A stretch of DNA of 48,763 nt from a virus. Lineage: Duplodnaviria > Caudoviricetes. Location of the stretch: IMG/VR virus record IMGVR_UViG_3300021961_000149, positions 1 to 48,763 of that record; one strand, given 5' to 3'. Below the pieces are notes generated by a model, which was not told the origin of the DNA, made no database searches, and worked only from the letters and a program-made list of their open reading frames with translations. Shown piece after piece: positions 27,997 through 48,682 of the stretch (positions are counted from its first letter, which is position 1; each line of letters opens with the position of its first letter). The translations under genes and the position numbers were made by a program.

Positions 27997-28461
27997 CTAA
28001 GACAGGTACGCTGTCCCTGAGAATGGTTGAGCCATTGTCAGTGTTAAAGTGTTAACATTATTATACTCTATACCAGTTTCTAATATGTCGCCGCCACTGG
28101 TTTTTACCGTTACATTTGGATAAAATTCAAGGTTGTGGTTTATTGGAACGGTGTATACTGGACCAGACTGTCCATTAAAATGTGCCATTTCCCAGCTATA
28201 CTCAAAGGCTATCTCTGTGTTGAGAAGGTAGTTTGAGGCTCCAGCCCATGTAAGATCGGTGGGCTTTGGACCATAGAATCTTGTTGTAGCTTTATCATAA
28301 TAAAAGTCTCCTTCAAGGCCTAGGTTTTCTGCTGGAATACCATTACCATTTAATATTGTTTTACCACGAGGACCTTGTGGGCCAGGACTGGATATTACAA
28401 CATCATTAATGGTTTCTGTAATAACAACTTTTGGAATATTATCGTTGTTTATAATTGGCAT
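27997..28461 (-). CDS. Structural protein with short collagen-like motif
   Basis: PGPQGPRG followed by GxxGDFY and INHNL motifs. Confidence 0.6.
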   Translation of the reverse strand: MPIINNDNIPKVVITETINDVVISSPGPQGPRGKTILNGNGIPAENLGLEGDFYYDKATTRFYGPKPTDLTWAGASNYLLNTEIAFEYSWEMAHFNGQSGPVYTVPINHNLEFYPNVTVKTSGGDILETGIEYNNVNTLTLTMAQPFSGTAYLS

Positions 28462-34680: not shown

Positions 34681-34681
34681 G

Positions 34682-34754
34682 AGCCCCCCAACAGAATCGA
34701 ACTGTCAACCTACGCATTACAAGTGCGTTGCTCTACCTATTGAGCTAAGGAGGC
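34682..34754 (-). tRNA. tRNA-Thr(UGU)
   Basis: Cloverleaf; anticodon loop CTTGTAA; GTTCGA T-loop. Confidence 0.9.
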
Positions 34755-34755
34755 T

Positions 34756-34831
34756 TGGCACCTCTAGAGAGACTTGAACTCCCGACACACAGGGTAGAAA
34801 CCTGTTGCTCTATCCACTGAGCTATAGAGGT
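34756..34831 (-). tRNA. tRNA-Arg(UCU)
   Basis: Cloverleaf; ACAGG-TTTCTAC-CCTGT anticodon arm; encoded CCA. Confidence 0.9.
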
Positions 34832-34832
34832 A

Positions 34833-34906
34833 TGGAGCGGATGATGAGAATCGAACTCACCCCTTCTGCTTGGAAGGCAGAGGCACTACCAATATGCAAC
34901 ATCCGC
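34833..34906 (-). tRNA. tRNA-Gly(UCC)
   Basis: Cloverleaf; TCTGC-CTTCCAA-GCAGA anticodon arm; encoded CCA. Confidence 0.9.
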
Positions 34907-35042
34907 ATGAGAACTCGGTTTATAGACTCCACACCGTAAGGCTTCCCCGCATGCGTTCTCAACATGGTGTAGTCGACTAGCTATATCGCTACATAACACG
35001 TACTTCTGCAACCGATGGCAGGTGTAGAGGTGCTGGTTCCAG

Positions 35043-35115
35043 CTGACCCACCAGGTCTCGATCCTGGGACATTCGAATTAACAGTTCGACGCTCTACCAA
35101 CTGAGCTATGGGTCA
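35043..35115 (-). tRNA. tRNA-Asn(GUU)
   Basis: Cloverleaf; TCGAA-CTGTTAA-TTCGA anticodon arm; atypical GATCGA T-loop; no CCA. Confidence 0.85.
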
Positions 35116-36731: not shown

Positions 36732-36963
36732 TATTTCAGATTTATGAAAATGTTAATATAGATTTATTTTGTATGATCCAGGGTTTTAAAATGTCCGTTT
36801 TGTCTATATAGTGCGCCCATAGATAGGCTAAATGTGACTTAACTCTCACACTTTTTTTTCAAATTGTCCGACATGTCCGATTTGCGACTTGATATTTGTC
36901 AGTCCCCCATGCTACGATTTATATATAAAGAAAAAGAAAGTATCTTAGAAAGGATAACTAAAA

Positions 36964-37074
36964 ATGATAGATTTCGTTAAACAATTAGAAGTCAATAACT
37001 ACCTAGCAGACGAGCAGGTAGACCCACTAGCAAAAATGCTAGATGAACTAATCTCGAAAGGAGAGTATAAATAA
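36964..37074 (+). CDS. Hypothetical 36-aa early protein
   Basis: GAAAGGA RBS; MIDFVKQLEV... Confidence 0.6.
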   Translation: MIDFVKQLEVNNYLADEQVDPLAKMLDELISKGEYK

Positions 37075-37247
37075 TGCTTACTCAAACTACATTAGATAAA
37101 ATCGTCTATGAATATCAACATGGCGGTGTTAAGGGTAATCACCCTGAACTAACCACTTATGAGCGAAAGGCGCTACTTAAGCACCTATTCAGCCTACCTA
37201 CCCATTGCGGTGGATGTGGTGTAAATCACACCGACACTAGGGGCTAA
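37074..37247 (+). CDS. Hypothetical 57-aa protein
   Basis: TAATG coupling; MLTQTTLDK... Confidence 0.6.
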   Translation: MLTQTTLDKIVYEYQHGGVKGNHPELTTYERKALLKHLFSLPTHCGGCGVNHTDTRG

Positions 37248-37394
37248 ATCCCCCTAAATGTCGGTAGCCCATGATAAGGTTATCCCATAACTTAATAAAG
37301 AATTAGAGCGTGAGCCTAGCAAATAATCCGAAAGGTGAGCCTAGCAAATAACCGCTCAACAATAAACCAACTAACGAAAAGGAATAGAAAATAA

Positions 37395-37547
37395 ATGACA
37401 ATCACTTACTCAATATGGCAAGGTAGCAATCTGCTATCCGTAGATAACACCGCTAAGAATAGCGAAGAAATCTTATCCGTAATGGCGGAATTAAATAAAT
37501 TAGGTAAAGGCTTTACCTACAATGTAAGAAAGGTAGATACTAAGTAA
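37395..37547 (+). CDS. Hypothetical 50-aa protein
   Basis: AACGAAAAGGA RBS; MTITYSIWQG... Confidence 0.6.
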   Translation: MTITYSIWQGSNLLSVDNTAKNSEEILSVMAELNKLGKGFTYNVRKVDTK

Positions 37548-37723
37548 TGATGACTAAATGGGATACTATCCAAGAGGATATAAAAGATGCTTATGCTCAC
37601 TTAGATGATGTAGAAGAATTAGAACAAGAAGATGAAGAAGATTTCTTCGGATTTTCTAAGGCTATTGAAATTGACCACCTAACAGATGAGCAACTAGACA
37701 TGATTGGAGAGATGTTTAACTAA
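37547..37723 (+). CDS. Highly acidic 58-aa protein
   Basis: TAATG coupling; DDVEELEQEDEEDFF. Confidence 0.6.
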   Translation: MMTKWDTIQEDIKDAYAHLDDVEELEQEDEEDFFGFSKAIEIDHLTDEQLDMIGEMFN

Positions 37724-37878
37724 TGATACCTAACGGATTTGAATTAATAATATCTAATGACTACGGAATAGAGTTTGATAGTTTTCTAGGGGCTATCTAT
37801 CTACCTTGGCACACTATTGCTATTGCTACCGCCCTACTAATCGCCTATAAGATTTATAAGAGAAAGAAGAATAAGTAA
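37723..37878 (+). CDS. Small membrane protein (51 aa)
   Basis: Hydrophobic helix followed by KIYKRKKNK. Confidence 0.6.
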   Translation: MIPNGFELIISNDYGIEFDSFLGAIYLPWHTIAIATALLIAYKIYKRKKNK

Positions 37879-37985
37879 TGACTACTAATCGCATACTAAC
37901 TACACTAGTGCAACTAGGTATCGGGATACCTACGCTATACATGCTGCGCCTTGTGATTAAAGACATAAAACAAAACGGCTTATAG
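37878..37985 (+). CDS. Small hydrophobic protein (35 aa)
   Basis: TAATG coupling; hydrophobic core. Confidence 0.5.
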   Translation: MTTNRILTTLVQLGIGIPTLYMLRLVIKDIKQNGL

Positions 37986-38208
37986 TCGGCGTGTCGATTT
38001 GACAATGTCAGATCGGCCCGCAGTCTTTTGCGGGCGTTATCCACAGCTTTATGCACAGGTGTGGAAAACCCCTGAATTCTGAGCGTAAGTTATCCACATG
38101 ACCTAAATCACAAAAATAGTTTTCCGACACGCCCGAAAAACGGGTCAAAATGTCAGTGGTCTATGTTAGGATACTAGGTATCAAGATAAAAAAGAAAGGT
38201 GGTCTAAA

Positions 38209-38394
38209 ATGACTACACTAAAAATCAGAGAGATTACTCTCTCAAATGTAAGTGCCGATGAGGCAAATCTAATTGTCTGCGCTTTTTGCTCAGACTACGC
38301 AAATGAAATCTTTTGCGGTAAATGTAATGAATACAAGGGTTTAATGACTCTTGGTGAGTGGTTATCATACACTCAAGAAAGTTGGGTGATGTAA
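38209..38394 (+). CDS. Zinc-finger protein
   Basis: CAFC...CGKC; GAAAGGTGG RBS. Confidence 0.65.
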   Translation: MTTLKIREITLSNVSADEANLIVCAFCSDYANEIFCGKCNEYKGLMTLGEWLSYTQESWVM

Positions 38395-38498
38395 TGAATT
38401 TAGAAGAATTCAAAAAACACGTTATTGAACAACGTGAAGCGTCTAAAAAAGAGGCGCTTGAAATCCTATCCGCTACTATTAGAAAGGAAAATGAATAA
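38394..38498 (+). CDS. Hypothetical 34-aa protein
   Basis: TAATG coupling; MNLEEFKKHV... Confidence 0.5.
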   Translation: MNLEEFKKHVIEQREASKKEALEILSATIRKENE

Positions 38499-38587
38499 TG
38501 GATTATTTAGATTATTTAGATGAAATCTACGATGAGCTCGTAGATGAATTCGGTCATGAGATCGAATCGAATTGCACACACAAGTAA
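38498..38587 (+). CDS. Acidic 29-aa protein
   Basis: GAAAGGA RBS; MDYLDYLDEIYDELVDEF... Confidence 0.5.
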   Translation: MDYLDYLDEIYDELVDEFGHEIESNCTHK

Positions 38588-38814
38588 TTGTGTGATGTAA
38601 ATCATAGCGACACAACGGCGTGTCGGCTTGACAGCCCGCAGAACTGCGGCGTCGGGCGTGTCGTTACGGATTCGTTATAAAAACCCCTAAATTCTGTGAG
38701 ATTTATCACACGAATTGAGCGTCTCACTATATGGAATTACTCGCTAGTAATTTGATAAATGTCGGTGGGTTATGGTAAATTACTCTAGTAATCAAATGAA
38801 AGGTGGTCTCACTT

Positions 38815-38991
38815 ATGACCCTTGTCCTGTCCCCTCTCCCTCTCACCAAAGTATTTTTGCGTAGCACGAATACTTTTATTTGTTGCGATGAATTGCAATA
38901 TGCGATTTATTGCGATGAACACTTTTTATTTCAAGGTTGCGAATTCTGCACCGACTTTGATATTACTGCGGAAAGGTGTTTCTGCGAATGA
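38815..38991 (+). CDS. Cys-rich hypothetical protein
   Basis: GAAAGGTGG RBS; CC, CxxH, CxxC and CxC motifs. Confidence 0.55.
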   Translation: MTLVLSPLPLTKVFLRSTNTFICCDELQYAIYCDEHFLFQGCEFCTDFDITAERCFCE

Positions 38992-39107
38992 TAACAATTA
39001 ACTGCAAATATTGTGCTACACCTGTAACCTCAGCACAATTTGAAATTGATGATGTAATTTCATGCGACTTGTGCTGGAATGAATTAGCCGAATTGGAGAA
39101 TGAATAA
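38988..39107 (+). CDS. 39-aa zinc-finger protein
   Basis: CKYC...CDLC; ATGA overlap. Confidence 0.55.
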   Translation: MITINCKYCATPVTSAQFEIDDVISCDLCWNELAELENE

Positions 39108-39212
39108 ATGGATTACTATGATGACTACTATGAAAATCCAGAACCTGTTTATGCAGGTTGCTACTGTAAATTAAATTACCTATGTTCCGAATGTAAAAGG
39201 AGTTACAACTAA
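39108..39212 (+). CDS. 34-aa Cys/Tyr-rich protein
   Basis: GGAG RBS; CYC...CSEC. Confidence 0.5.
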   Translation: MDYYDDYYENPEPVYAGCYCKLNYLCSECKRSYN

Positions 39213-39394
39213 TGGCTAACATGGAATTACTTCAAGAAATAAAAGCAATGTCAAAAGCAATTCGACATGGCGATTCTGATTCAGGAAATGCTTATTTGCT
39301 TGGTTATATTTGGGCAACTTTAACGCCTGAGCAACAACAAGAAACATTTAATGAATTTAAAAAAGATTTTAAAAATGTTCCACGTCGTGCATAG
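39212..39394 (+). CDS. Hypothetical protein
   Basis: AAGGAG RBS; 60 aa. Confidence 0.6.
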   Translation: MANMELLQEIKAMSKAIRHGDSDSGNAYLLGYIWATLTPEQQQETFNEFKKDFKNVPRRA

Positions 39395-39658
39395 ATATGC
39401 AATGCATGCATAAAAATGCATGCGGATCATAGCTGAGGCAAAATGTCCGATTTGGGCCCCCTCTTTTGCGGGCCTTGTCAAGTCGAATTACGGCGTGTCG
39501 CAAAAAAACCTTGAAAATTCTTGTGATTTTGATCACCGTGTGATGAACCTCACACCGCTTGAGCGTCTCATTATTTGGAATTACTGGCTAGTAAGTAGAA
39601 AAATGTCAGTGGGCTTTGGTAAAATAGCGACATAACAAAAAAGAAAGAAGGTGCCAAC

Positions 39659-39874
39659 ATGGCAAACCTATACACAATCGAAAGCCTCTTAGTAGGAAAA
39701 ACTTATCGCTCAAAAACTTTGGTTGGCGAAATTATCTCCGCAGAAAAACACCCTGCCGCAATTTGGTATGGTGATAACACCGAAACCTATTTGGTAGAGG
39801 TTGCTCCGAATAGCGGATACAATAATTGGGGTCGCAAGACTTTCCGCACAATCGCAGTAAAGGTAGGTGAATAA
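39659..39874 (+). CDS. Small beta-barrel-like hypothetical protein
   Basis: 71 aa downstream of the 39604 promoter. Confidence 0.65.
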   Translation: MANLYTIESLLVGKTYRSKTLVGEIISAEKHPAAIWYGDNTETYLVEVAPNSGYNNWGRKTFRTIAVKVGE

Positions 39875-39876
39875 TA

Positions 39877-40020
39877 ATGGGATACATAGAAATTTTCCGC
39901 ATGAATGAAAATGGTGCTGGTTGGGTAGATTTATCCGAAGCCACTACCGCTGAATTGCTAGACCTAGAATTAGGACTACTCCATGAGGGAGCCCTATTCA
40001 CTAAGCCCGAAGCCGACTAA
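39877..40020 (+). CDS. Hypothetical 47-aa protein
   Basis: AGGTAGGTG RBS; MGYIEIFRM... Confidence 0.55.
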   Translation: MGYIEIFRMNENGAGWVDLSEATTAELLDLELGLLHEGALFTKPEAD

Positions 40021-40075
40021 ATGTCGGTGGTGGGTGCTATAATCTGATTTACCAAAACACGAAAGGAAAACTAAA

Positions 40076-40231
40076 ATGGCTAAAATGAAAAATCTACTAT
40101 TCGCAATAGAACAATGCGATATTTGCGAGGGCAAAGGTATCTCTGGTGCGTGGGTATCGCCAGACGGAGATTATGATTTCGAATGGTGCGAATGTAATAC
40201 TGAACACCTAATCCCTGCGGAGAATTTCTAA
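40076..40231 (+). CDS. 51-aa zinc-binding protein
   Basis: CDICEGKG...CEC; ACGAAAGGA RBS. Confidence 0.6.
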   Translation: MAKMKNLLFAIEQCDICEGKGISGAWVSPDGDYDFEWCECNTEHLIPAENF

Positions 40232-40351
40232 ATGGAAATTTTTATCTGCTCTGGTTGCTCAACACTTGCCACCTTGTCGGTGGTAGGTGATACAATACAA
40301 ATAACAAAATGCCAATGTCAAACTAACGAAAGGGAAAACCTAAATGACTAA
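40232..40351 (+). CDS. 39-aa Cys protein overlapping a promoter
   Basis: CSGC...CQC; contains the 40275 promoter. Confidence 0.4.
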   Translation: MEIFICSGCSTLATLSVVGDTIQITKCQCQTNERENLND

Positions 40352-40556
40352 CTATAAAATAACTGTGGCGTATGATGAAAATGCTCCACACTTCACAAAT
40401 ACATATTCAGATGAACTACAAGCACACACCGAGTTTGCTAAGTTTATTGACTGGGGCTTTGCTGATGAATACGCAACTGTAAATCTATTTACACCTAGCG
40501 GAAAATGCTACACAAAAGTATTTTATCGTGAAGGTAGAAGGGTGGTAATTAAATAA
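40344..40556 (+). CDS. Hypothetical protein
   Basis: AACGAAAGG RBS; 70 aa. Confidence 0.7.
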   Translation: MTNYKITVAYDENAPHFTNTYSDELQAHTEFAKFIDWGFADEYATVNLFTPSGKCYTKVFYREGRRVVIK

Positions 40557-40747
40557 TGATGACCCGTAAAGATTATATTGCTACCGCAGAAATTCTAAAG
40601 TATGCCAGCAACAAAACTCACCCTGCTGTATTTTCTAAAATTGTAAATGATTTCGCTGAAATGTTTGCGAAAGATAATGAGCGATTTGATGTAAAACGAT
40701 TTCACGAAGCGAGTGGGTATCATGTTCCAAATTTCTCTTCGAGATAA
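40556..40747 (+). CDS. Hypothetical protein
   Basis: MTRKDY...DNERFDVKRF; TAATG coupling. Confidence 0.7.
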   Translation: MMTRKDYIATAEILKYASNKTHPAVFSKIVNDFAEMFAKDNERFDVKRFHEASGYHVPNFSSR

Positions 40748-40853
40748 AGTAAAACGCATTCAGGAATTGCGTCGCAGTAATGCGGCGCAACCTGTTCGCA
40801 ATAAAAAAAAATACACACGCAAAATAAAACATAAAAATAAACTTGACAATTGA
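40722..40853 (+). CDS. 43-aa very basic protein
   Basis: MFQISLRDKVKRIQELRRSNAAQPVRNKKKYTRKIKHKNKLDN. Confidence 0.5.
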   Translation: MFQISLRDKVKRIQELRRSNAAQPVRNKKKYTRKIKHKNKLDN

Positions 40854-40989
40854 TCGGTGGCCCGCAAAGCTGCGGAGTCGGGCGTGTCGTTACGGGTGTG
40901 ATCAAAATCACCCTGAATTCTGAGGCGTGGCGTGGAAAATGTCAGTCCGTTCTGTTATAATTGCAATTCACCGAACGAAAGGTCAACTC

Positions 40990-41214
40990 ATGAAATATGA
41001 AAATGACGAATTCTATGACGAATTCTATGCCACAACCGAACCCGTAATCATTGCTAACTGTGCAGATTGCAGAGATGAAACCGAACTATTAGACGGAATC
41101 ATTTGCTGGACTTGCTCTCTTGAGCGTTCTGAAATGAAATTCTTTGATTTATTTGAAAGAGATGAATTCCGTATGCAGTCTCGTATGGCCGATGCAGAAA
41201 TGGGGGATTTATAA
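40990..41214 (+). CDS. Acidic zinc-finger protein
   Basis: AACGAAAGG RBS; CADC...CWTC. Confidence 0.65.
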   Translation: MKYENDEFYDEFYATTEPVIIANCADCRDETELLDGIICWTCSLERSEMKFFDLFERDEFRMQSRMADAEMGDL

Positions 41215-41243
41215 TGTCAGAGGTCTCCGCTATAATTACCCCC

Positions 41244-41960
41244 ATGTTAAAACGTTCTAACGATAGAAAGGTCGCTAATGCCGTCTCCCCAAATGGAAAA
41301 ACCCCAACAATTGCCAACACTTTTGGATTGCCTGCTGGTAAGGCTTTCTCGTGTCCTGGTGCCACTAGTATTTGTGAAAGCGTCTGCTATGCAGGAAAAC
41401 TCGAAAAGGTCTATAAGGGCGTAAGGGCCGTACTTTTACACAATTGGGAATTGCTACGCAATGCGGACCAACCTACTATGGTTAACTTAATTGAAGATAT
41501 GATTGCAGACTTTAAAAAAGACTGCGTCAAGCGCAATGCTAAAATGCTCTTCCGTATCCACTGGGACGGCGATTTCTTTAATGATACGTATGCATATGCC
41601 TGGAAGACCGTTATCGAAAACAATAGCGACGTGCAATTTTGGGTTTATACACGAGTAAAGTCTGCAGCGCTTATTCTTAAGGATGTTTCTAACCTATCTC
41701 TTTACTATTCAACCGATGATGAGAATAAAGAAACGGGCCACGAATTAAAACGTGATAACGGTATCCGTCTTGCTTATCTAGGTAAGACATTCGCAATGAC
41801 AGAAAGTGTCATGAAAGAATTAACGGGCAAGCCTGGTGCTAAGTGTCCTGAAAATAATAAAAGCATTCCGCTAATTTCAACTAACGGTTCTGCATGTGTG
41901 TCATGTGGATTGTGTGTTTATGGTAAAGCGGATATTAGATTTAGCGCAACTAAGAAATGA
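41244..41960 (+). CDS. Gp88-like (radical-SAM-like, Cys-rich) protein
   Basis: FGLPAG..SCPGAT..C..VCYA, FRIHWDGDF and FWVYTR motifs; leaderless start 7 nt after TATAAT. Confidence 0.75.
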   Translation: MLKRSNDRKVANAVSPNGKTPTIANTFGLPAGKAFSCPGATSICESVCYAGKLEKVYKGVRAVLLHNWELLRNADQPTMVNLIEDMIADFKKDCVKRNAKMLFRIHWDGDFFNDTYAYAWKTVIENNSDVQFWVYTRVKSAALILKDVSNLSLYYSTDDENKETGHELKRDNGIRLAYLGKTFAMTESVMKELTGKPGAKCPENNKSIPLISTNGSACVSCGLCVYGKADIRFSATKK

Positions 41961-41970
41961 GGAAATAAAA

Positions 41971-42096
41971 ATGGCGGAGCTCAAATATTTTAATGCATTA
42001 ATAAATTCCGTGGTTGGTAACGATGAAGAGAGAAAAGCTGCTAAAGAATATTTAGCAGAGGTGGATCCTGAAGTCTGGGGAGATTCTCCAGACTGA
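41971..42096 (+). CDS. Hypothetical 41-aa protein
   Basis: GAGGA RBS; MAELKYF... Confidence 0.5.
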   Translation: MAELKYFNALINSVVGNDEERKAAKEYLAEVDPEVWGDSPD

Positions 42097-42259
42097 AGGG
42101 CCCGCAATACTGCGGGGTTTTCCACAGGCTTACGGCTTGCTTGTGGATAACCCTGAAAATGTGAGAAACTTCACAAAAGCTGCGACACGCCGAGGCTTAA
42201 TTGGTAAATGTCGGTGGCTTAGTGTAAAATACCATTATTCAACCAACGAAAGGCAACAA

Positions 42260-42466
42260 ATGATAAAAGTAGAACACTCTCTCCGATTCATAACTGAGTT
42301 TGATGAAACTCATCCAGTAGCACAACGCTTCCTATCACTAGATAAAGATTCACAAATTGGTATGCTTGAAGGCATGCTAAAAGAACTTATTGTTCCCGCA
42401 ATTAAACCAACCATTGACGAAATTAACGCAGGCGGTTCATACGCAATTCTAAAGGTGGCTAACTAA
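42260..42466 (+). CDS. Hypothetical protein
   Basis: CAACGAAAGG RBS; start MIKVEH. Confidence 0.7.
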   Translation: MIKVEHSLRFITEFDETHPVAQRFLSLDKDSQIGMLEGMLKELIVPAIKPTIDEINAGGSYAILKVAN

Positions 42467-42741
42467 TGTTATCAACTGCCCTTGAAATCCTAGACGCAAC
42501 TAAAGATAGCATGTTTGACGATGAGATTATGTATCTCGCAGGCGAACTACACACACGCAGAAATGAACTTCCCGATGAGATTTTTGCTAAATACTTATTT
42601 ATGTATTCATCGGCACTATCAGCAAAGGTGGCAGATAGCATTACTAAAATCTTGCTAACCAAAGAGGAAATGTCAGCCCTATGTGATAGTATTGACGAAA
42701 TGGAAAACCTATCCGAAACTATCCTAGAGGAGAACGAATAA
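42466..42741 (+). CDS. Hypothetical protein
   Basis: TAATG coupling; 91 aa. Confidence 0.7.
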   Translation: MLSTALEILDATKDSMFDDEIMYLAGELHTRRNELPDEIFAKYLFMYSSALSAKVADSITKILLTKEEMSALCDSIDEMENLSETILEENE

Positions 42742-43019
42742 TGGGAAGCAATATGGCATATGACTTGGCTAGTAATGACTTACTAGACTTGGACTTAGAA
42801 ACACAACTAGAAATCCACTTAACTAGTAATCACTATCCACCCGTTCCTATCAGCATGGTCGCACCTTGTATTGATGCTATCGATGCTTACTATGATGAGG
42901 ACTATGACAGATTAATTAAACTACCTGAAGGCGTGTCTTGGAGGGGTCAAAATACTTCTCCTGCCTACGCCCTTGTAGATGCTCACCACTTATCAGCATG
43001 GCTTCCTGAAGCCGAGTAG
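42741..43019 (+). CDS. Hypothetical protein
   Basis: HLTSNHYPP...HHL; GAGGAG RBS. Confidence 0.7.
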   Translation: MGSNMAYDLASNDLLDLDLETQLEIHLTSNHYPPVPISMVAPCIDAIDAYYDEDYDRLIKLPEGVSWRGQNTSPAYALVDAHHLSAWLPEAE

Positions 43020-43130
43020 CGGGATCAAGGGTGTGAGGCAACTCACACTCTTGGTATCTCATATAATAAGATTGGGGTAGATAAATGTCAGACCCCTTTG
43101 GTATAATAATCGCCTAACGAAAGGAAACAA

Positions 43131-43283
43131 ATGACAACAACGCTAGAAATCGGACAGACCTACACAACCGCAAAGTCGGGAGTAGTCGGAGTAATCAAGG
43201 CAGTAGATAACCACCCTTCAGGTGTGGCTCGTGTGCTACTTGATGTAAATGGTTCAGAGCGTTGGACTTCAGTAGAAGTCTAA
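43131..43283 (+). CDS. 50-aa SH3-like protein
   Basis: AACGAAAGGA RBS; YTTAKSGVVGVI, similar to 43902..44084. Confidence 0.65.
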   Translation: MTTTLEIGQTYTTAKSGVVGVIKAVDNHPSGVARVLLDVNGSERWTSVEV

Positions 43284-43412
43284 CAAACTATCGAAACAGG
43301 GGCAGTTTAGGAAGTGTTCTAGCCCAATGTCGTAAGGGAGAACTTCCCCCCTTCGGGGGTTGTCAGACCCACCTGCTATAATAATCAACCAACCAAACGA
43401 AAGGAAAAACAA

Positions 43413-43835
43413 ATGGCTAGAGGTAAAGCGATAAATGTAAAAATCGCAACTGCTAAGGTTATCAAAGCCTTAGAAACTAAATTGGCACAAGTAAATGCTG
43501 ATTACTCAAAGCAAGACGAATACGAAGCAAAGTATCAGAAGTCCGTTGAGAAATGGAACAAAGAAATTGCTAAGTTTGCTATTGCTCAAATTGCTAAAGC
43601 ACAAAATCTCCGCACCAACTATCGTAATTGGAACAACACTCTTAATGTTGATTTTGATTTAATTGTTGAGGAAAAAGATTTCCCTAAGCAACCTGAGCGT
43701 GATTTTGAGCAAATCCACCGCCACACTTACAATGAGATGAAAGAGGAACTAGAGAACGCTATCCGTATTCTGAAAATGACAGATGAGGAAATGGTTTCTA
43801 CTTCTACTTACAACGCTATTGCTCGTTATCTTTAA
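43413..43835 (+). CDS. Hypothetical coiled-coil protein
   Basis: 140 aa; own promoter and AACGAAAGGA RBS. Confidence 0.75.
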   Translation: MARGKAINVKIATAKVIKALETKLAQVNADYSKQDEYEAKYQKSVEKWNKEIAKFAIAQIAKAQNLRTNYRNWNNTLNVDFDLIVEEKDFPKQPERDFEQIHRHTYNEMKEELENAIRILKMTDEEMVSTSTYNAIARYL

Positions 43836-43901
43836 GAGATGAGCAAAGTCCTGAGTATGACTATAAACTGCTCAACCCACCTACTAACGAAAGGAAATCA
43901 A

Positions 43902-44084
43902 ATGTCGCCAATACTAGATGTAAAGCGTGGTCGCTTCTACCGAAAGGGAGATGTATTCACCACTGGTAAATCAGGTATTACAGGTAGCATAACTGAGATT
44001 ATCTCTATCCGACCTAATCTAACTAAACTAAGATTAGATACTGGTAGCGGTATGCGCTATGCTATGGTAAAAATCGGTAAGTAA
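43902..44084 (+). CDS. 60-aa SH3-like protein
   Basis: AACGAAAGGA RBS; FTTGKSGITGSI. Confidence 0.65.
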   Translation: MSPILDVKRGRFYRKGDVFTTGKSGITGSITEIISIRPNLTKLRLDTGSGMRYAMVKIGK

Positions 44085-44225
44085 TGCTATAATAAGTAAA
44101 TTCGCCAGGCTGATTAGGGCGATAATAGAAATACTATAGAGCAGGGTACTGCCGCCCGAAAGACGCAGACCTCCTGAGCATGAGCCAAAACTGCTCACCA
44201 ACATCCCTACTACAGAAAGATAAAA

Positions 44226-44468
44226 ATGAAAAATCGTTATCGTGTTGAAATCTATGACGAAGTAAAAGCAAATGATTTAACTATTTATTCAGAGCAAGGT
44301 GTGGATAAAGAATATTTAACCGAATTAGTATTTTCTAATTTGCGCCGTTTCTCTGGTAATGTTCGTGCTTATGTTTTTGATAATCTAAAGAAAAAGAAAA
44401 CAACTGCACTATTTTTGCCAATGGAAGTTATTCCTAAGAAAACTGAACTAACTAAATTGCTTGGCTAA
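44226..44468 (+). CDS. Hypothetical protein
   Basis: 80 aa; followed by a GGGGCGGA/TCCGCCCC hairpin. Confidence 0.65.
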   Translation: MKNRYRVEIYDEVKANDLTIYSEQGVDKEYLTELVFSNLRRFSGNVRAYVFDNLKKKKTTALFLPMEVIPKKTELTKLLG

Positions 44469-44676
44469 AGTCTTGGGGCGGATCTTATTCCGCCCCATTT
44501 CCCAAGCTGGCCCGCAAAGCTGCGGGGTTATCCACAGCCTTACGACAGTTATCCACAACCCCCCGAAATTTGTGAGATTGATCACATGAGACAATTCGGA
44601 CAAATGACTAACTAACCTTGTAAATGTCAGACCCTTATGTTATACTCAATCTAACTACAATCGAAAGGATAAATTC

Positions 44677-45681
44677 ATGGCTCATAACCTTGAAACAAAT
44701 GGCGACCAAGTTGCCTTTGCTTTGCGTGGAACTCCCGCATGGCACAATCTCGCTAATCGTATCTTCTCACAAGATGAAGATGTTAGCACTCAAACAATGC
44801 TTGATGAAGCAAAACTTTCCAACTGGAATGTTCGCTTATCTCCATTGACCGACCATATCTCTACTGAATGGAATGATGTTTCTAACGCTCAGTTAGTTAT
44901 TCGCACAAATCCATTTAATAGTGGAACTGATGTTCTCGCTACTGTTGGTAAGCGATATAAGCCTGTTCAAAATGAAGAACTATTTGCTTTCGCAGATAAT
45001 ATTCATGACGCAGACCCTAATTGCCGTTGGGAATCTGCTGGCTCTCTAAAGAATGGTAAAGTTGTATTTGGAACTGTTGATATTCCACGCACAATGGTAT
45101 TAGACCCACAAGGTGCTAATGACCAAACCAAACTTTATCTTATCGTATGGACTTCACACGATGGCTCTGTTGCTGTTCAGGCAGCGATTACACCTGTTCG
45201 TGTTGTATGCCAAAACACTTTGAATCTTGCTATGCGTAATGCTAAGCAATCTTTCAAGATTCGCCATACACAATCTGTTGAAGGTCGCATTCAAGTTGCT
45301 CGTGAGACTCTTGGTCTTGCTCTTGGATACTTTGATGAATTCGAAAAAGAAGCGCAGGAACTCTTTAAGCAAGAGATTACTAACGCTGAATTCTCTAAGT
45401 TGATTACTTCAATTTATCCTAAGCCTGAAAAGGACTCTAAGGGTGCTTTGAAAAAGTGGGAAAATAAAGTTGTCTTAATTGATGACCTTTATCATAACTC
45501 ACCAACTAACGCTAATATTAAAGGCACAAAGTGGGGTGCGTTTAACGCTCTTACTGAACGCCTTGATTATTTCCGTTCAGGTCGTGGCAATTCTGAATCA
45601 CTAATGGCTGGTGCTTCAGGCTTTGACCCAATTCTCACCGCTGAGAAAAATAAACTTCTCAAGTTGGTAAAAGCGTTTTAA
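44677..45681 (+). CDS. DUF932-family phage/plasmid protein (TIGR03299-like)
   Basis: MAHNLE..PAWHNL, YKPVQNEE, SHDGS, RVVCQNTL, IRHT and GTKWGAFNALTE motifs. Confidence 0.85.
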   Translation: MAHNLETNGDQVAFALRGTPAWHNLANRIFSQDEDVSTQTMLDEAKLSNWNVRLSPLTDHISTEWNDVSNAQLVIRTNPFNSGTDVLATVGKRYKPVQNEELFAFADNIHDADPNCRWESAGSLKNGKVVFGTVDIPRTMVLDPQGANDQTKLYLIVWTSHDGSVAVQAAITPVRVVCQNTLNLAMRNAKQSFKIRHTQSVEGRIQVARETLGLALGYFDEFEKEAQELFKQEITNAEFSKLITSIYPKPEKDSKGALKKWENKVVLIDDLYHNSPTNANIKGTKWGAFNALTERLDYFRSGRGNSESLMAGASGFDPILTAEKNKLLKLVKAF

Positions 45682-45695
45682 TTAACGCTTAACTA

Positions 45696-45727
45696 ACGGG
45701 GGAGAGAAATCTCCCCCGTTTTTATTT
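45696..45727 (+). terminator. Intrinsic terminator
   Basis: AACGGGGGAGA-GAAA-TCTCCCCCGTT followed by TTTATTT. Confidence 0.75.
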
Positions 45728-45801
45728 GGTTCGTTAGCTTAGTTGGATAAAGCGCCACCCTGTCACGGTGGAGATCACGGGTTCAAGTCCCGTACGAATC
45801 G
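45728..45801 (+). tRNA. tRNA-Asp(GUC)
   Basis: Cloverleaf; CCACC-CTGTCAC-GGTGG anticodon arm; GTTCAA T-loop. Confidence 0.9.
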
Positions 45802-45931
45802 CTAATGAGATTTATAATCTTAATATGTGAGACGCCCGCAACCTTGAAGGCCAAATTTCTGTGTTACGGATCACATAAAAAAAGCCCTGAATCCTATTGT
45901 AAATGTCAGTGGGCCCTGGTACAATTTCCGC

Positions 45932-46570
45932 ATGACAACAAAATGGACAAAATACACATCTGTGTGCCCCTCATGCGATGCGCTTGATGAGTACACAACA
46001 ACCCTTAGTCCAATATATCTGACATGTCATTGTGGCACCATCATGACTTACTTGTCAGTGGTCGATGCTACAATACAACCTACAAACGAAAGGAATACAA
46101 TGGAAACAACAGATACATTCGGAGCCACAGTAACACCTATGGTTCCTGAATCATACGATGCCAACGTTCTTGTAACATACAAGGATATCACTAACGGAGT
46201 TACTACATATCCAACAATCAAGGTTAACGACCTTGAATGGAAGTTAGATAACTATCGCCGTAACTCAGATGAACTTCGTAAGTCCCGTGGTTTAATTAAT
46301 GGACTAAGCGAACAAGTATCAGAGTGGGCGGACCCTAACTACGATAAGGAAGAAGTTCTAATTGCTCTCTGCGAATACTTTGGAATCAATCCAACTAGAG
46401 AAGTTGAATTCACCGCAACTGTAGAAATTTGTGGAACAATTCAAGTTCCATTCAACGAGGTTGAAGACTTTGACCTTGATGACCACTTGTCAGAAAATCT
46501 ATCAATTGATTTCAATCACGGAGATTCAGAACTCTCTGATTGGACAATCAATTACGCACAGGTGAACTAA
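45932..46570 (+). CDS. Hypothetical protein with N-terminal Zn finger and internal in-frame start at 46100
   Basis: Leaderless start; internal promoter at 46053 and AACGAAAGGA RBS before METTDT. Confidence 0.7.
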   Translation: MTTKWTKYTSVCPSCDALDEYTTTLSPIYLTCHCGTIMTYLSVVDATIQPTNERNTMETTDTFGATVTPMVPESYDANVLVTYKDITNGVTTYPTIKVNDLEWKLDNYRRNSDELRKSRGLINGLSEQVSEWADPNYDKEEVLIALCEYFGINPTREVEFTATVEICGTIQVPFNEVEDFDLDDHLSENLSIDFNHGDSELSDWTINYAQVN

Positions 46571-46782
46571 TGTACTTTGAGTTGACTGCTCCTGATAGGC
46601 TGTCCATGGAGATGGCCTATTGGGATGCTCAGGTTCTAGGACTTGACCCAGTTGCATTAACACCGTTGACATTCAATATCGGAACTGGTAACATTGAGAA
46701 GGTAAGTCGCCTTCGAGATAAGTATAATCTAATAGAGAGTTATACATCAGACTACGAACCGACTGGATATACAAGGAGATAA
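46570..46782 (+). CDS. Hypothetical protein
   Basis: TAATG coupling; start MYFELT. Confidence 0.65.
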   Translation: MYFELTAPDRLSMEMAYWDAQVLGLDPVALTPLTFNIGTGNIEKVSRLRDKYNLIESYTSDYEPTGYTRR

Positions 46783-46783
46783 A

Positions 46784-46939
46784 ATGGATTACCAAGATGG
46801 ATTTGAAGATGGTGTAAAGTTTGCACGAGAAGTTATTGTAAATAACATTCGACTGTGGGCTGAAACATCAGAGGACGGGCAAGTAATGGACGATGTTGCT
46901 GACCGTCTTGAATTCGGAACGGTAGACTATGACCTCTGA
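46784..46939 (+). CDS. Acidic 51-aa protein
   Basis: AAGGAG RBS; MDYQDGFEDG... Confidence 0.6.
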   Translation: MDYQDGFEDGVKFAREVIVNNIRLWAETSEDGQVMDDVADRLEFGTVDYDL

Positions 46940-47138
46940 GGATCTAAACGTAGTTTATTATTGTGACAGCTGCAGCGTAGCACGGGCCTCACATCTAATT
47001 AAACTGTTAGATGGTGAGCTAGCTTTCTGTGGCCACCACTATAATAAATATAAAGGGGCCCTTGACAAAAAGGCCTATGAAGTGATAGAATTAAATAAAA
47101 CAGAAGAAGCAGTACCTCAACTAGAAAAGGCGGAATAA
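46929..47138 (+). CDS. Small zinc-binding protein
   Basis: CDSC...LAFCGHH. Confidence 0.65.
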   Translation: MTSEDLNVVYYCDSCSVARASHLIKLLDGELAFCGHHYNKYKGALDKKAYEVIELNKTEEAVPQLEKAE

Positions 47139-47140
47139 AT

Positions 47141-47545
47141 ATGGGAGACAGAGCAAACTTTGGATTCGTCCAACCTAACGGAAACACAATTGTACTATAC
47201 GGCCATTGGGCTGGACATAACATGCTAGCACAATTAGCAGAGGCAGTGTTTAAAGCACGGCCACGATGGTCCGACCCTTCATATGCAACACGTATCACAA
47301 TCAGTCAGATGATTAATAATGATTGGGGTTCAGAGACTGGATGGGGCCTGCATGTCAATGAGATTGGCGACAACGAGCACAAGATTGCCATCGTTGACTT
47401 TGACCAGCAAACGTTTAGTCTTCATGAAGAGGCGCCACGCAATGACAAGGATAACAAGGTGAATGGGATGAGCAATCAGCCACTATTTACCATGGACCTG
47501 TCTAACTTCGTAGAGAAATACGCAGACGTAACTCTATCAGTTTAG
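47141..47545 (+). CDS. Hypothetical protein
   Basis: MGDRANF..LYGHWAG..RWSDPSYATRI. Confidence 0.75.
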   Translation: MGDRANFGFVQPNGNTIVLYGHWAGHNMLAQLAEAVFKARPRWSDPSYATRITISQMINNDWGSETGWGLHVNEIGDNEHKIAIVDFDQQTFSLHEEAPRNDKDNKVNGMSNQPLFTMDLSNFVEKYADVTLSV

Positions 47546-47566
47546 TTAACTGTAATATGATATAAT

Positions 47567-47722
47567 ATGAATAGGTCCTAGCGGGCCTGTTCATTGAAGT
47601 AGGGTGCGGCTACCAGGGATTCCCCTAGTCGTTAAATAAAGCAGCGTATACTTAATTCCTTTCGTTGTGCTAGCAGCCTTACTTATCTTAAGATCCTTCA
47701 GCTTAGCTGGGGGATTTTTTGT
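47567..47722 (+). ncRNA. Candidate sRNA carrying the antisense of the early-gene RBS
   Basis: TGATATAAT upstream; 12-bp hairpin, three-way junction and terminator; contains AATTCCTTTCGTTG. Confidence 0.6.
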
Positions 47723-47905
47723 TTGGCCCGCAACGGATGAGGGTAACATATTCTGTTTACGGAAGTCAAATATATTTCCTGGAAATCTCACATATTGGAC
47801 ATATATTTATTTAAAGCTTGATCATGTGGTGTAAAACACACCCATATTGCATAGACAAATGTCAGTGGTCCATTATATAATTAGGTCATAACGAAAGGAG
47901 AAATA

Positions 47906-48682
47906 ATGCCAAATTGGTGTTATAACACATTAACTATCCAAGGACCTAAGTCTGAGGTAGATATGATTAAAGATAGATTGAATGCTCCATTTACATTAGC
48001 ACAAGAGACATATGGTATGGGTGATATTAGTCTTTCAGGATTCCCCACCAAAATTCAACAGGTAAAATACAGCAATCCTGTATTTGCATTCTTCAATATC
48101 CACTCATATAAGGATGACGGTATTACAGATGAAGAATATGCATGCCAGCCTGACCGTGGCGGAATTGATATGAATGACCCTGATTGGTTTGTTAAGTCTG
48201 TTGAGTTTGCTAAAACTCAGAAGGATTGGTATTCATGGAATAATTCCAACTGGGGAACTAAATGGGATGTGGCTGTTCGTGACGGTGAAGAGTATTCCAA
48301 CACTGAATTGTTAGAACACAATATTTCAGACGGTGATGATAACTGGCTTGTATATAAATATGAGACTGCTTGGTCACCTGCTGTAACTATTCTAACTAAA
48401 CTATCTAATCTTGTTCCTAACTGCCTGCTTACTTTAGAGTATGAGGAAGAAACAGGTTGGGGTGGGGAATATGAGATTCTCCGTGGAGATGTTAAAGAAT
48501 TAGTTAGTTATGAAACACGTTGCTATGCTTGCCAATCTTATGATTGTGTTGAGTATTGCGATAATGATTGTGGTCAATTCTGCTCTGAATGCAATGAGGG
48601 TTCATGGCGAGATGAAGAGGCCATGAAAGAATGTCAGACCCACATGGTATTATTGGAAACTACAGAAAAGGCGGAAGTATGA
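47906..48682 (+). CDS. DUF1281/YubB ferredoxin-like family protein with C-terminal Cys cluster
   Basis: MPNWCYN, WYSWN..NWGTKWD and ETAWSP motifs. Confidence 0.75.
   Translation: MPNWCYNTLTIQGPKSEVDMIKDRLNAPFTLAQETYGMGDISLSGFPTKIQQVKYSNPVFAFFNIHSYKDDGITDEEYACQPDRGGIDMNDPDWFVKSVEFAKTQKDWYSWNNSNWGTKWDVAVRDGEEYSNTELLEHNISDGDDNWLVYKYETAWSPAVTILTKLSNLVPNCLLTLEYEEETGWGGEYEILRGDVKELVSYETRCYACQSYDCVEYCDNDCGQFCSECNEGSWRDEEAMKECQTHMVLLETTEKAEV

What the first reader, a model, noticed from the sequence alone, without database searches (positions are those of the whole stretch)
47558..47722. Candidate sRNA complementary to the shared early-gene RBS: a one-RNA shut-off switch
Seen: many early genes use an extended RBS AACGAAAGG(A), at ~40325, 40974, 42245, 43116, 43396, 43886, 46085 and 47890, with variants at ~37053, 37373, 40058 and 44660. 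An ORF-less unit has its own -10 (TGATATAAT, no TGTCRG), a 12-bp hairpin, a three-way junction (AAGTAGGGTGC/GCAGCCTTACTT) and a terminator. It carries AATTCCTTTCGTTG (47654-47667), largely in a loop, which is the reverse complement of CAACGAAAGGAATT and gives up to ~12 contiguous bp with those RBSs. On the minus strand the motif has no start codon after it. The AAC extension is not explained by the actinobacterial anti-SD (CCUCCUUUCU). Late genes use GGAG-type RBSs or are leaderless. Inference: a trans-acting anti-SD RNA that silences the barcoded early regulon at the early-to-late transition, and might also hit host GAAAGGA mRNAs.
Basis: partly seen in the sequence, partly recalled or inferred. 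Interest (0 to 1): 0.85.

Follow-up and report, generated by a model that had tools for sequence, protein, structure and literature searches.

The report
Phage RNA reads early-gene barcode
Lake phages of actinobacteria carry a conserved folded non-coding RNA element whose loop is complementary to a short sequence tag at the start of many of their own early genes, so one RNA likely switches that gene set off, which would explain tags that have puzzled actinophage researchers since 2011.

Summary
Observation confirmed. AACGAAAGG occurs 8 times before early start codons and once reversed (chance 0.28). The reversed copy lies in a three-way-junction RNA (47597-47684) with strong covariation (10 of 17 pairs) and no Rfam match. 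Its loop CUUUCGUU is invariant in 79 of 80 relatives chosen by the neighbouring protein. acI-type 16S tails do not explain the AAC (0 of 107). Loop and tag travel together: AAC precedes 36 of 66 GAAAGG sites in loop-bearing lineages, 39 of 246 in others. One lineage carries CCUUUCG in a different arm. The scaffold is older than the loop: it occurs with other loops, also in cultured Streptomyces BE phages. Mycobacteriophage Angelica has its single reversed start-associated sequence in a predicted hairpin loop of an unrelated structure. Best reading: a trans-acting antisense repressor of the tagged genes (0.55). Not shown: a discrete transcript, repression, late timing, host targets. Against: few independent lineages, tagged phages with no detected RNA, unknown scaffold function. 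Two earlier scan notes concern neighbouring DNA features, not this RNA.

The parts
47597..47684 (+). Core three-way-junction RNA: P1 47597-47605/47676-47684, P2 47606-47611/47627-47632, linker UAAAUAAA 47633-47640, P3 47641-47645/47669-47674
   Evidence: 66-sequence alignment: 94.2% of cells paired, 10 of 17 pairs with changes on both sides, 0 of 500 shuffles; one copy per genome searched
47659..47666 (+). Invariant loop seed CUUUCGUU, complementary to AACGAAAG (window loop extends the match to AAUUCCUUUCGUUG, 47654-47667)
   Evidence: 79 of 80 loci fetched by the upstream protein carry it; the 80th has no downstream DNA
47558..47566 (+). Extended -10-like element TGATATAAT, no TGTCRG element upstream (predicted promoter)
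   Evidence: sequence; absent from the TGTCRG list; loose match in 31 of 43 distinct RNAs
47567..47594 (+). 12-bp hairpin overlapping the predicted start site; not part of the conserved core
   Evidence: fold; absent in many relatives
47690..47718 (+). Intrinsic-terminator-like hairpin and U run
   Evidence: similar hairpins of different sequence in most relatives
47141..47545 (+). Upstream gene, 134 aa, phrog_31860, function unknown; usual but not obligatory neighbour
   Evidence: lies downstream of the RNA in L231 and 30 kb or more away in Karimac, where a tmRNA follows it
40325..40333 (+). Tagged RBS AACGAAAGG (ATG 40344)
40974..40982 (+). Tagged RBS (ATG 40990)
42245..42253 (+). Tagged RBS (ATG 42260)
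43116..43124 (+). Tagged RBS (ATG 43131)
43396..43404 (+). Tagged RBS (ATG 43413)
43886..43894 (+). Tagged RBS (ATG 43902); the only one of the eight without its own TGTCRG promoter motif
46085..46093 (+). Tagged RBS (ATG 46100)
47890..47898 (+). Tagged RBS (ATG 47906)

Best explanation
The element is a conserved three-way-junction RNA whose loop is complementary to the AACGAAAG tag on a subset of the phage's early genes, and it likely acts in trans as an antisense repressor that would block ribosome binding on all tagged mRNAs at once. Shown: structure by covariation, invariant loop, complementarity, co-occurrence of loop and tag. Inferred: the RNA is made from its own -10 promoter or released from the upstream gene's transcript; the loop (UUCG, a YUNR-type kissing motif, label recalled) pairs with the short unstructured leaders of early mRNAs made from PafBC-type promoters; the duplex covers GAAAG(G) and outcompetes the 16S tail; the C in place of the 16S-matching A lets the RNA tell tagged mRNAs from ordinary AGAAAGG ones. 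Its accumulation would act as a timer or threshold on early-gene output; the timing is untested. The scaffold itself likely binds a protein, since it is kept with other loops.
For: Tag count 9 vs 0.28. Tag confined to a block of about 11 kb in three complete genomes, each with a reversed copy at the RNA. Covariation score 0.448 vs 0.142 shuffled. Loop invariant in 79 of 80 while the stems around it change. 0 of 107 acI-type 16S tails read CCTTTCG. Computed duplex with the 8 tagged sites -13.1 to -18.9 kcal/mol vs -7.5 to -12.9 for the 16S tail; with 6 untagged early sites -7.6 to -10.7 vs -9.6 to -13.8. AAC before GAAAGG: 36 of 66 sites in 4 loop-bearing protein clusters, 7 of 52 in 4 other-loop clusters, 32 of 194 in 21 clusters without a detected RNA; p=0.002 on 4 vs 21 clusters with 5 or more sites; 8 clusters with short downstream DNA left out. 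Where the loop base opposite the second G is C the RBS has G in 175 of 188 sites; where it is A or U, in 102 of 148. A lineage with a different P3 loop has CCUUUCG in the P2b loop, with a changed stem, and keeps the tag. Independent parallel: Angelica's single reversed SAS lies in a predicted 10-nt hairpin loop, z=-5.2, region conserved in 137 records.
Against: No discrete transcript, strand or timing shown: only contigs were available. The loop-bearing lineages need only 3 label changes on a quick tree, so the comparisons rest on few independent events. The tag occurs without a detected RNA: 16% of sites in no-RNA clusters, L498/L449 with 9 of 16 and 6 of 12 on contigs 62% and 52% complete, and the complete phage DSL-LC01 with a repeated ACGACGAAAGGAC RBS. 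With an A in the loop the RBS does not change to the compensating U (0 of 111): relaxation, not compensation. The scaffold is kept with unrelated or variable loops, so its main function may be something else. The single-sequence fold hides CGUU. The host is assumed, not shown. Keshu lacks the anti-SAS loop.
Confidence: 0.55

Rival explanations
1. Guide or adaptor RNA: the scaffold binds a protein or the ribosome and the loop delivers it to tagged mRNAs, either a nuclease (RegB-like outcome) or an activator acting as a substitute anti-Shine-Dalgarno.
For: Scaffold nucleotides (GG, CU, AG, UAA.UA, GC) are kept from lake phages to Streptomyces phages while loops vary; the seed occurs in two different arms; AACGAAAG is kept when the SD shifts, and tag-to-ATG distance stays at median 8 in AACGAAAG-AGG sites (27 sites).
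Against: AACGAAAG-AAGG sites shift to median 11 (15 sites), which follows the 16S register; tagged sites are already good SDs; no fixed protein partner: the upstream gene is not always adjacent and has no functional match.
Confidence: 0.2
2. The scaffold has a separate primary job (binding a host machine, or catalysis); ACGAAAGG is just a common actinophage RBS style and the loop is a generic anti-SD stretch with no selective control of tagged genes.
For: Other-loop and variable-loop versions; AAC at 16% in no-RNA clusters; tagged phages without detected RNA; BE-phage RNAs end in CCUUUCAA.
Against: CGUU, which matches the tag and not the 16S tail, is invariant in 79 of 80; tag frequency tracks the loop.
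Confidence: 0.15
3. AACGAAAG is a DNA site (operator just downstream of early promoters) and the reversed copy is one more such site.
For: 7 of 8 tags lie within 50 nt of a TGTCRG-N10-TAnnnT promoter motif.
Against: The reversed copy sits in the loop of a covarying stem in every relative and moves to another loop in one lineage; G-U pairs place the fold on the + strand.
Confidence: 0.05
4. A cis-acting 3' UTR element of the upstream gene, pairing at most with the RBS of the next gene.
For: In many relatives the core starts 6-35 nt after the stop codon with no -10; RNA-library contigs bridge gene and element.
Against: Terminator between the element and the next gene; own TTGACA/-10 promoter motifs in BE phages, L279 group, L366 and L661; tags on 8 separate genes.
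Confidence: 0.05

Closest known systems
Start-associated sequences (SAS) of cluster K mycobacteriophages and cluster EF Microbacterium phages (PMC3203893, PMC7302621; passages read)
   Same: Over-conserved asymmetric repeat at the RBS of non-structural genes, positions not explained by 16S pairing, one orientation with a single reversed copy (K1 phages); reader 'RNA or protein' left open.
   Different: Different sequence (8-9 nt vs 13 bp). Here a candidate RNA reader is identified. The Angelica hairpin does not match this scaffold. ESAS inverted repeats not tested.
C4 antisense RNA of phages P1/P7 (PMC12197685, one passage read)
   Same: Phage-encoded structured RNA with target-complementary loops that blocks a ribosome-binding region.
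   Different: C4 targets the ant mRNA; this RNA matches 8 or more separate genes through a shared tag. No Rfam match to any family.
T4 RegB endoribonuclease (PMC3014915, passages read)
   Same: Inactivates many early mRNAs through a motif in the Shine-Dalgarno region.
C-rich anti-SD sRNAs of Gram-positive bacteria such as RNAIII, RsaE, 6C (recalled, not read)
   Same: Unpaired pyrimidine loop pairing with the SD of many targets.
   Different: Host-encoded, read generic G-rich SDs; here phage-encoded with a phage-specific tag.

Membership tests
Trans-acting SD-blocking sRNA | Conserved seed in an unpaired loop of a conserved structure | tested here: met
   the window's single-sequence fold disagrees for CGUU
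Trans-acting SD-blocking sRNA | Complementarity to translation-initiation regions of separate genes, stronger than the 16S tail | tested here: met
   (computed duplexes)
Trans-acting SD-blocking sRNA | Discrete transcript with own ends | tested here: inconclusive
   promoter and terminator motifs; contigs only
Trans-acting SD-blocking sRNA | Represses target translation, rescued by compensatory changes | not testable with these tools
   needs reporters or toeprinting
Start-associated sequence (SAS) | Repeat at RBS of non-structural genes, one orientation, single reversed copy | tested here: met
Start-associated sequence (SAS) | Conserved positions not explained by 16S pairing | tested here: met
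   0 of 107 acI-type tails; host assumed
Start-associated sequence (SAS) | Cluster K consensus and ESAS inverted repeats | not tested
   the tag sequence plainly differs; ESAS not searched
Any Rfam 15 family (incl. C4 RNA, ribozymes) | Covariance-model match | tested here: not met
   only tRNAs at gathering; best E 0.56 at 17.7 bits vs 39 needed; none over the RNA in 13 other loci
Pistol ribozyme, circularly permuted (consensus recalled) | GC after the GU cleavage site pairs with GC after the UAAAUA linker | tested here: not met
   those bases covary with the P2 3' strand (L163, L365, L366) while the GC after the linker stays

The most novel reading that the evidence does not exclude
Start-associated sequences of actinophages are barcodes read by phage-encoded antisense loop RNAs, a regulon-level RNA switch that arose at least twice (this three-way-junction family and the cluster K hairpin), and the junction is a reusable scaffold on which phages swap targeting loops like a guide RNA.
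Probability: 0.35. Interest if true: 0.92.

Novelty: new variant of a known kind. Interest (0 to 1): 0.82.

Why it matters
It offers a concrete, testable reader for the start-associated sequences described in 2011 with no known function, and an RNA counterpart to T4 RegB for controlling a whole set of early genes. The RNA family is absent from Rfam, occurs in hundreds of lake phage contigs (about 330 stretches estimated for the scaffold pattern, roughly a quarter of those inspected being chance) and in 86 cultured Streptomyces phage records, and the parallel in Angelica can be tested at once in M. smegmatis. A portable scaffold with exchangeable loops could also serve as a silencing tool in actinobacteria.

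Tried and rejected
Host anti-SD ending in CUUUCGUU: rejected for acI-type 16S (0 of 107). Permuted pistol ribozyme: rejected by covariation. L239/L303 scaffold-pattern hits: antisense to tail genes, chance. DSL-LC01 model hit at L643:24102: z=+0.87, chance; no CCTTTCG on its early strand in 51 kb. Targets for other loops (L231, L279, L440, L366, L365 P3, Karimac) near gene starts: none found. TTGACA-N18-TAGAAT at 47062 as promoter of the upstream gene: lies in a coding frame with synonymous variants, ambiguous. Host copy of the RNA: 2 hits in GTDB genomes, both 3-kb MAG contigs of genomes without WhiB, not used as host evidence; the 16S search around one of them was therefore discarded. Tag frequency in host genomes: loci not held. 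Exact loop-motif scan: mostly unrelated RBSs read backwards. Metatranscriptome contigs from 8 runs cover gene and element in part; in X1, X5 and X14 cover stops near the terminator, in X3 a contig runs through; no conclusion drawn. blastn of the region to INPHARED: no meaningful match. Fold of the upstream protein: job never finished. Careful tree not finished; quick tree used. Literature: nine searches ran and their listings showed no report of this RNA; in PMC10690425 six motifs gave no hit in 6 supplementary files, but 3 files, among them the two largest, could not be searched and may list it as a candidate.

Full report
Setting. The window is a 48.8-kb fragment of a large tailed phage with structural genes on the - strand and a block of small genes on + from about 32 kb; it encodes a WhiB-like domain, relatives come from IMG/VR with complete genomes of 104-115 kb, and the neighbouring protein has homologs only in actinobacterial phages in INPHARED (39 records). 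An actinobacterial host is inferred; acI is assumed.

Observation. AACGAAAGG occurs 9 times (0.28 expected): 8 on + before ATGs and once on - at 47658-47666. The unit folds with z=-4.0, ends in a terminator-like stem and matches no Rfam family. Only 8 of the 16 GAAAGG-type starts of the window carry AAC. 19 TGTCRG-N10-12-TAnnnT motifs lie on + and none on -; 7 of the 8 tags follow one within 50 nt. This motif fits the PafBC consensus tGTCgg(N10)tA(N3)T (PMC8635444, passages; lead from an earlier scan note). The RNA's -10 lacks it.

The RNA is real by comparative evidence. Of 80 loci fetched with the upstream protein (50-95% identity), 79 carry the element with CUUUCGUU just downstream; one has no downstream DNA (four needed reading by eye because of linker variants). 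In a 66-sequence alignment (66 chosen from 86 distinct cores plus two other-loop cores and the window; one row, L162, mis-cut) 94.2% of cells pair, 10 of 17 pairs change on both sides and the covariation score is 0.448 against 0.142 (the structure was predicted on the same alignment). The fold is a tight three-way junction with a UAARUAAD linker. The 5' hairpin and -10 are dispensable (31 of 43 with a loose -10), so some versions probably derive from the upstream gene's 3' end. One copy per genome was found in the window and four other records.

Does the loop read the tag? (1) 107 of 107 16S ends captured with an acI probe motif (letters recalled) read GGATCACCTCCTTTC followed by T or A, never G. 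(2) Computed duplexes favour the loop over the 16S tail at all 8 tagged sites and mostly not at 6 untagged ones. (3) In three complete genomes the tag is confined to about 11 kb, with a reversed copy at the RNA. (4) Among 160 loci anchored on the 334-aa early protein (159 fetched plus the window; L154 omitted), AAC precedes 36 of 66 GAAAGG sites in loop-bearing clusters, 7 of 52 in other-loop clusters and 32 of 194 in clusters with no RNA in 7 kb or more downstream; 8 short clusters (12 of 56) were left out. The label needs 3 changes on a quick tree, so independence is low. (5) When the loop base facing the second G is C, that G is present in 175 of 188 sites; when A or U, in 102 of 148, with A appearing, never a compensating U for the A type. 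(6) In the L365/L731 lineage (4 contigs, 2 variants) P3 has another loop and CCUUUCG sits in the P2b loop between changed stems; tags are kept (6 in L731, 8 in L779 on +). L661, with neither loop, has no tag excess.

The scaffold is wider than the loop. A loop-free scan found versions with other loops, some variable within a lineage. A broadened model hit the terminal repeat of Streptomyces phage Karimac (E=6e-4); that stretch is conserved in 86 phage records, and 10 of 10 sampled score 22.8-33 bits, each behind a TTGACA/-10 motif, with a short conserved P3 loop and no Rfam match. No targets for these loops were found. So the junction has its own function, probably protein binding (inference).

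Results against. The tag also occurs where no RNA was detected: 93 loci gave no hit with the broadest model while both controls scored; L498/L449 (incomplete contigs) and complete DSL-LC01 are tagged yet negative. The window's own minimum-energy fold hides CGUU. Eight metatranscriptome runs offered only contigs, which cover gene and element in part and show neither ends nor strand. Nothing bears on timing. Spacing does not separate repression from an adaptor role.

Comparison with what is known. Pope et al. 2011 (PMC3203893, passages) described SAS repeats at RBS positions in cluster K phages, left open an RNA or protein reader, and noted one reversed copy in K1 phages; cluster EF has a similar unexplained motif (PMC7302621, passages). 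I tested this in Angelica: in the 29.5 kb fetched, 16 forward SAS matches and one reversed; the reversed one forms the loop CCUCCUAUCC of a predicted long hairpin (z=-5.2) in a stretch conserved in 137 records, annotated as a hypothetical gene in some and unannotated in others. Four of five aligned phages keep the loop; Keshu does not; 7 of 49 pairs change on both sides; single folds of three divergent copies are not significant and Amelie's folds differently. It does not match this scaffold, so it would be a convergent case. Other analogues: P1/P7 C4 RNA (PMC12197685, passage) and T4 RegB (PMC3014915, passages). From 10.1101/343640 I saw two passages; from PMC10690425 only a supplement search with three files unread. 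Other papers were seen as search listings only.

Verdict. A new RNA family and a strongly supported loop-tag relationship; the most likely mechanism is trans-acting occlusion of tagged ribosome-binding sites (0.55), with a protein-carrying guide (0.2) and a scaffold function unrelated to the tag (0.15) as main rivals. It works like known SD-blocking sRNAs but belongs to no described family tested here. Interest 0.82.

Noticed in passing
L780:28540-28720 (mycobacteriophage Angelica, record 58539-58719): The single reversed SAS lies in the loop of a predicted long hairpin inside a multi-hairpin stretch conserved in 137 records; annotated gp92 may be a non-coding RNA.
   Followed up: partly
L644:35104-35177 (-), Karimac terminal repeat: Same scaffold in cluster BE Streptomyces phages, behind a consensus promoter motif, with loop A(A/U)GGUCGG and tail CUUUCAA.
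   Followed up: partly
L644:12337-13031: In Karimac the homolog of the 134-aa upstream gene is followed directly by an annotated tmRNA; this gene family may favour non-coding RNA neighbours.
   Followed up: no
window 36897-48632: 18 PafBC-type promoter motifs, all on +, most directly before small genes; one more at 28036.
   Followed up: partly
L643:13300-28100 and L655 (DSL-LC01): 22 RBSs with CGAAAGG, mostly ACGACGAAAGGAC, behind a repeated CTAAAGATGTTATAAT promoter-like motif; no matching RNA found.
   Followed up: partly
window 47606-47611 and acI-type 16S 3' end: GGTGCGGCT in the RNA equals the 3' strand of 16S helix 45; P2 varies freely in relatives, so probably coincidence.
   Followed up: partly
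window 47725-47850: Downstream of the terminator a conserved block (GCCCGC...GAGGGT...TTTACG...GTCAA...CCTGGAAAT...TGTGGTGT) recurs in most relatives; it resembles the repeat of an earlier scan note.
   Followed up: no
L231:6019-6045 and L440:12640-12660: Two distant scaffold variants have G-rich P3 loops; C-rich targets such as host 6C RNA (recalled) were not tested.
   Followed up: no
window 34681-35115 and 45728-45802: Five tRNA genes (Thr, Arg, Gly, Asn on -, Asp on +).
   Followed up: no
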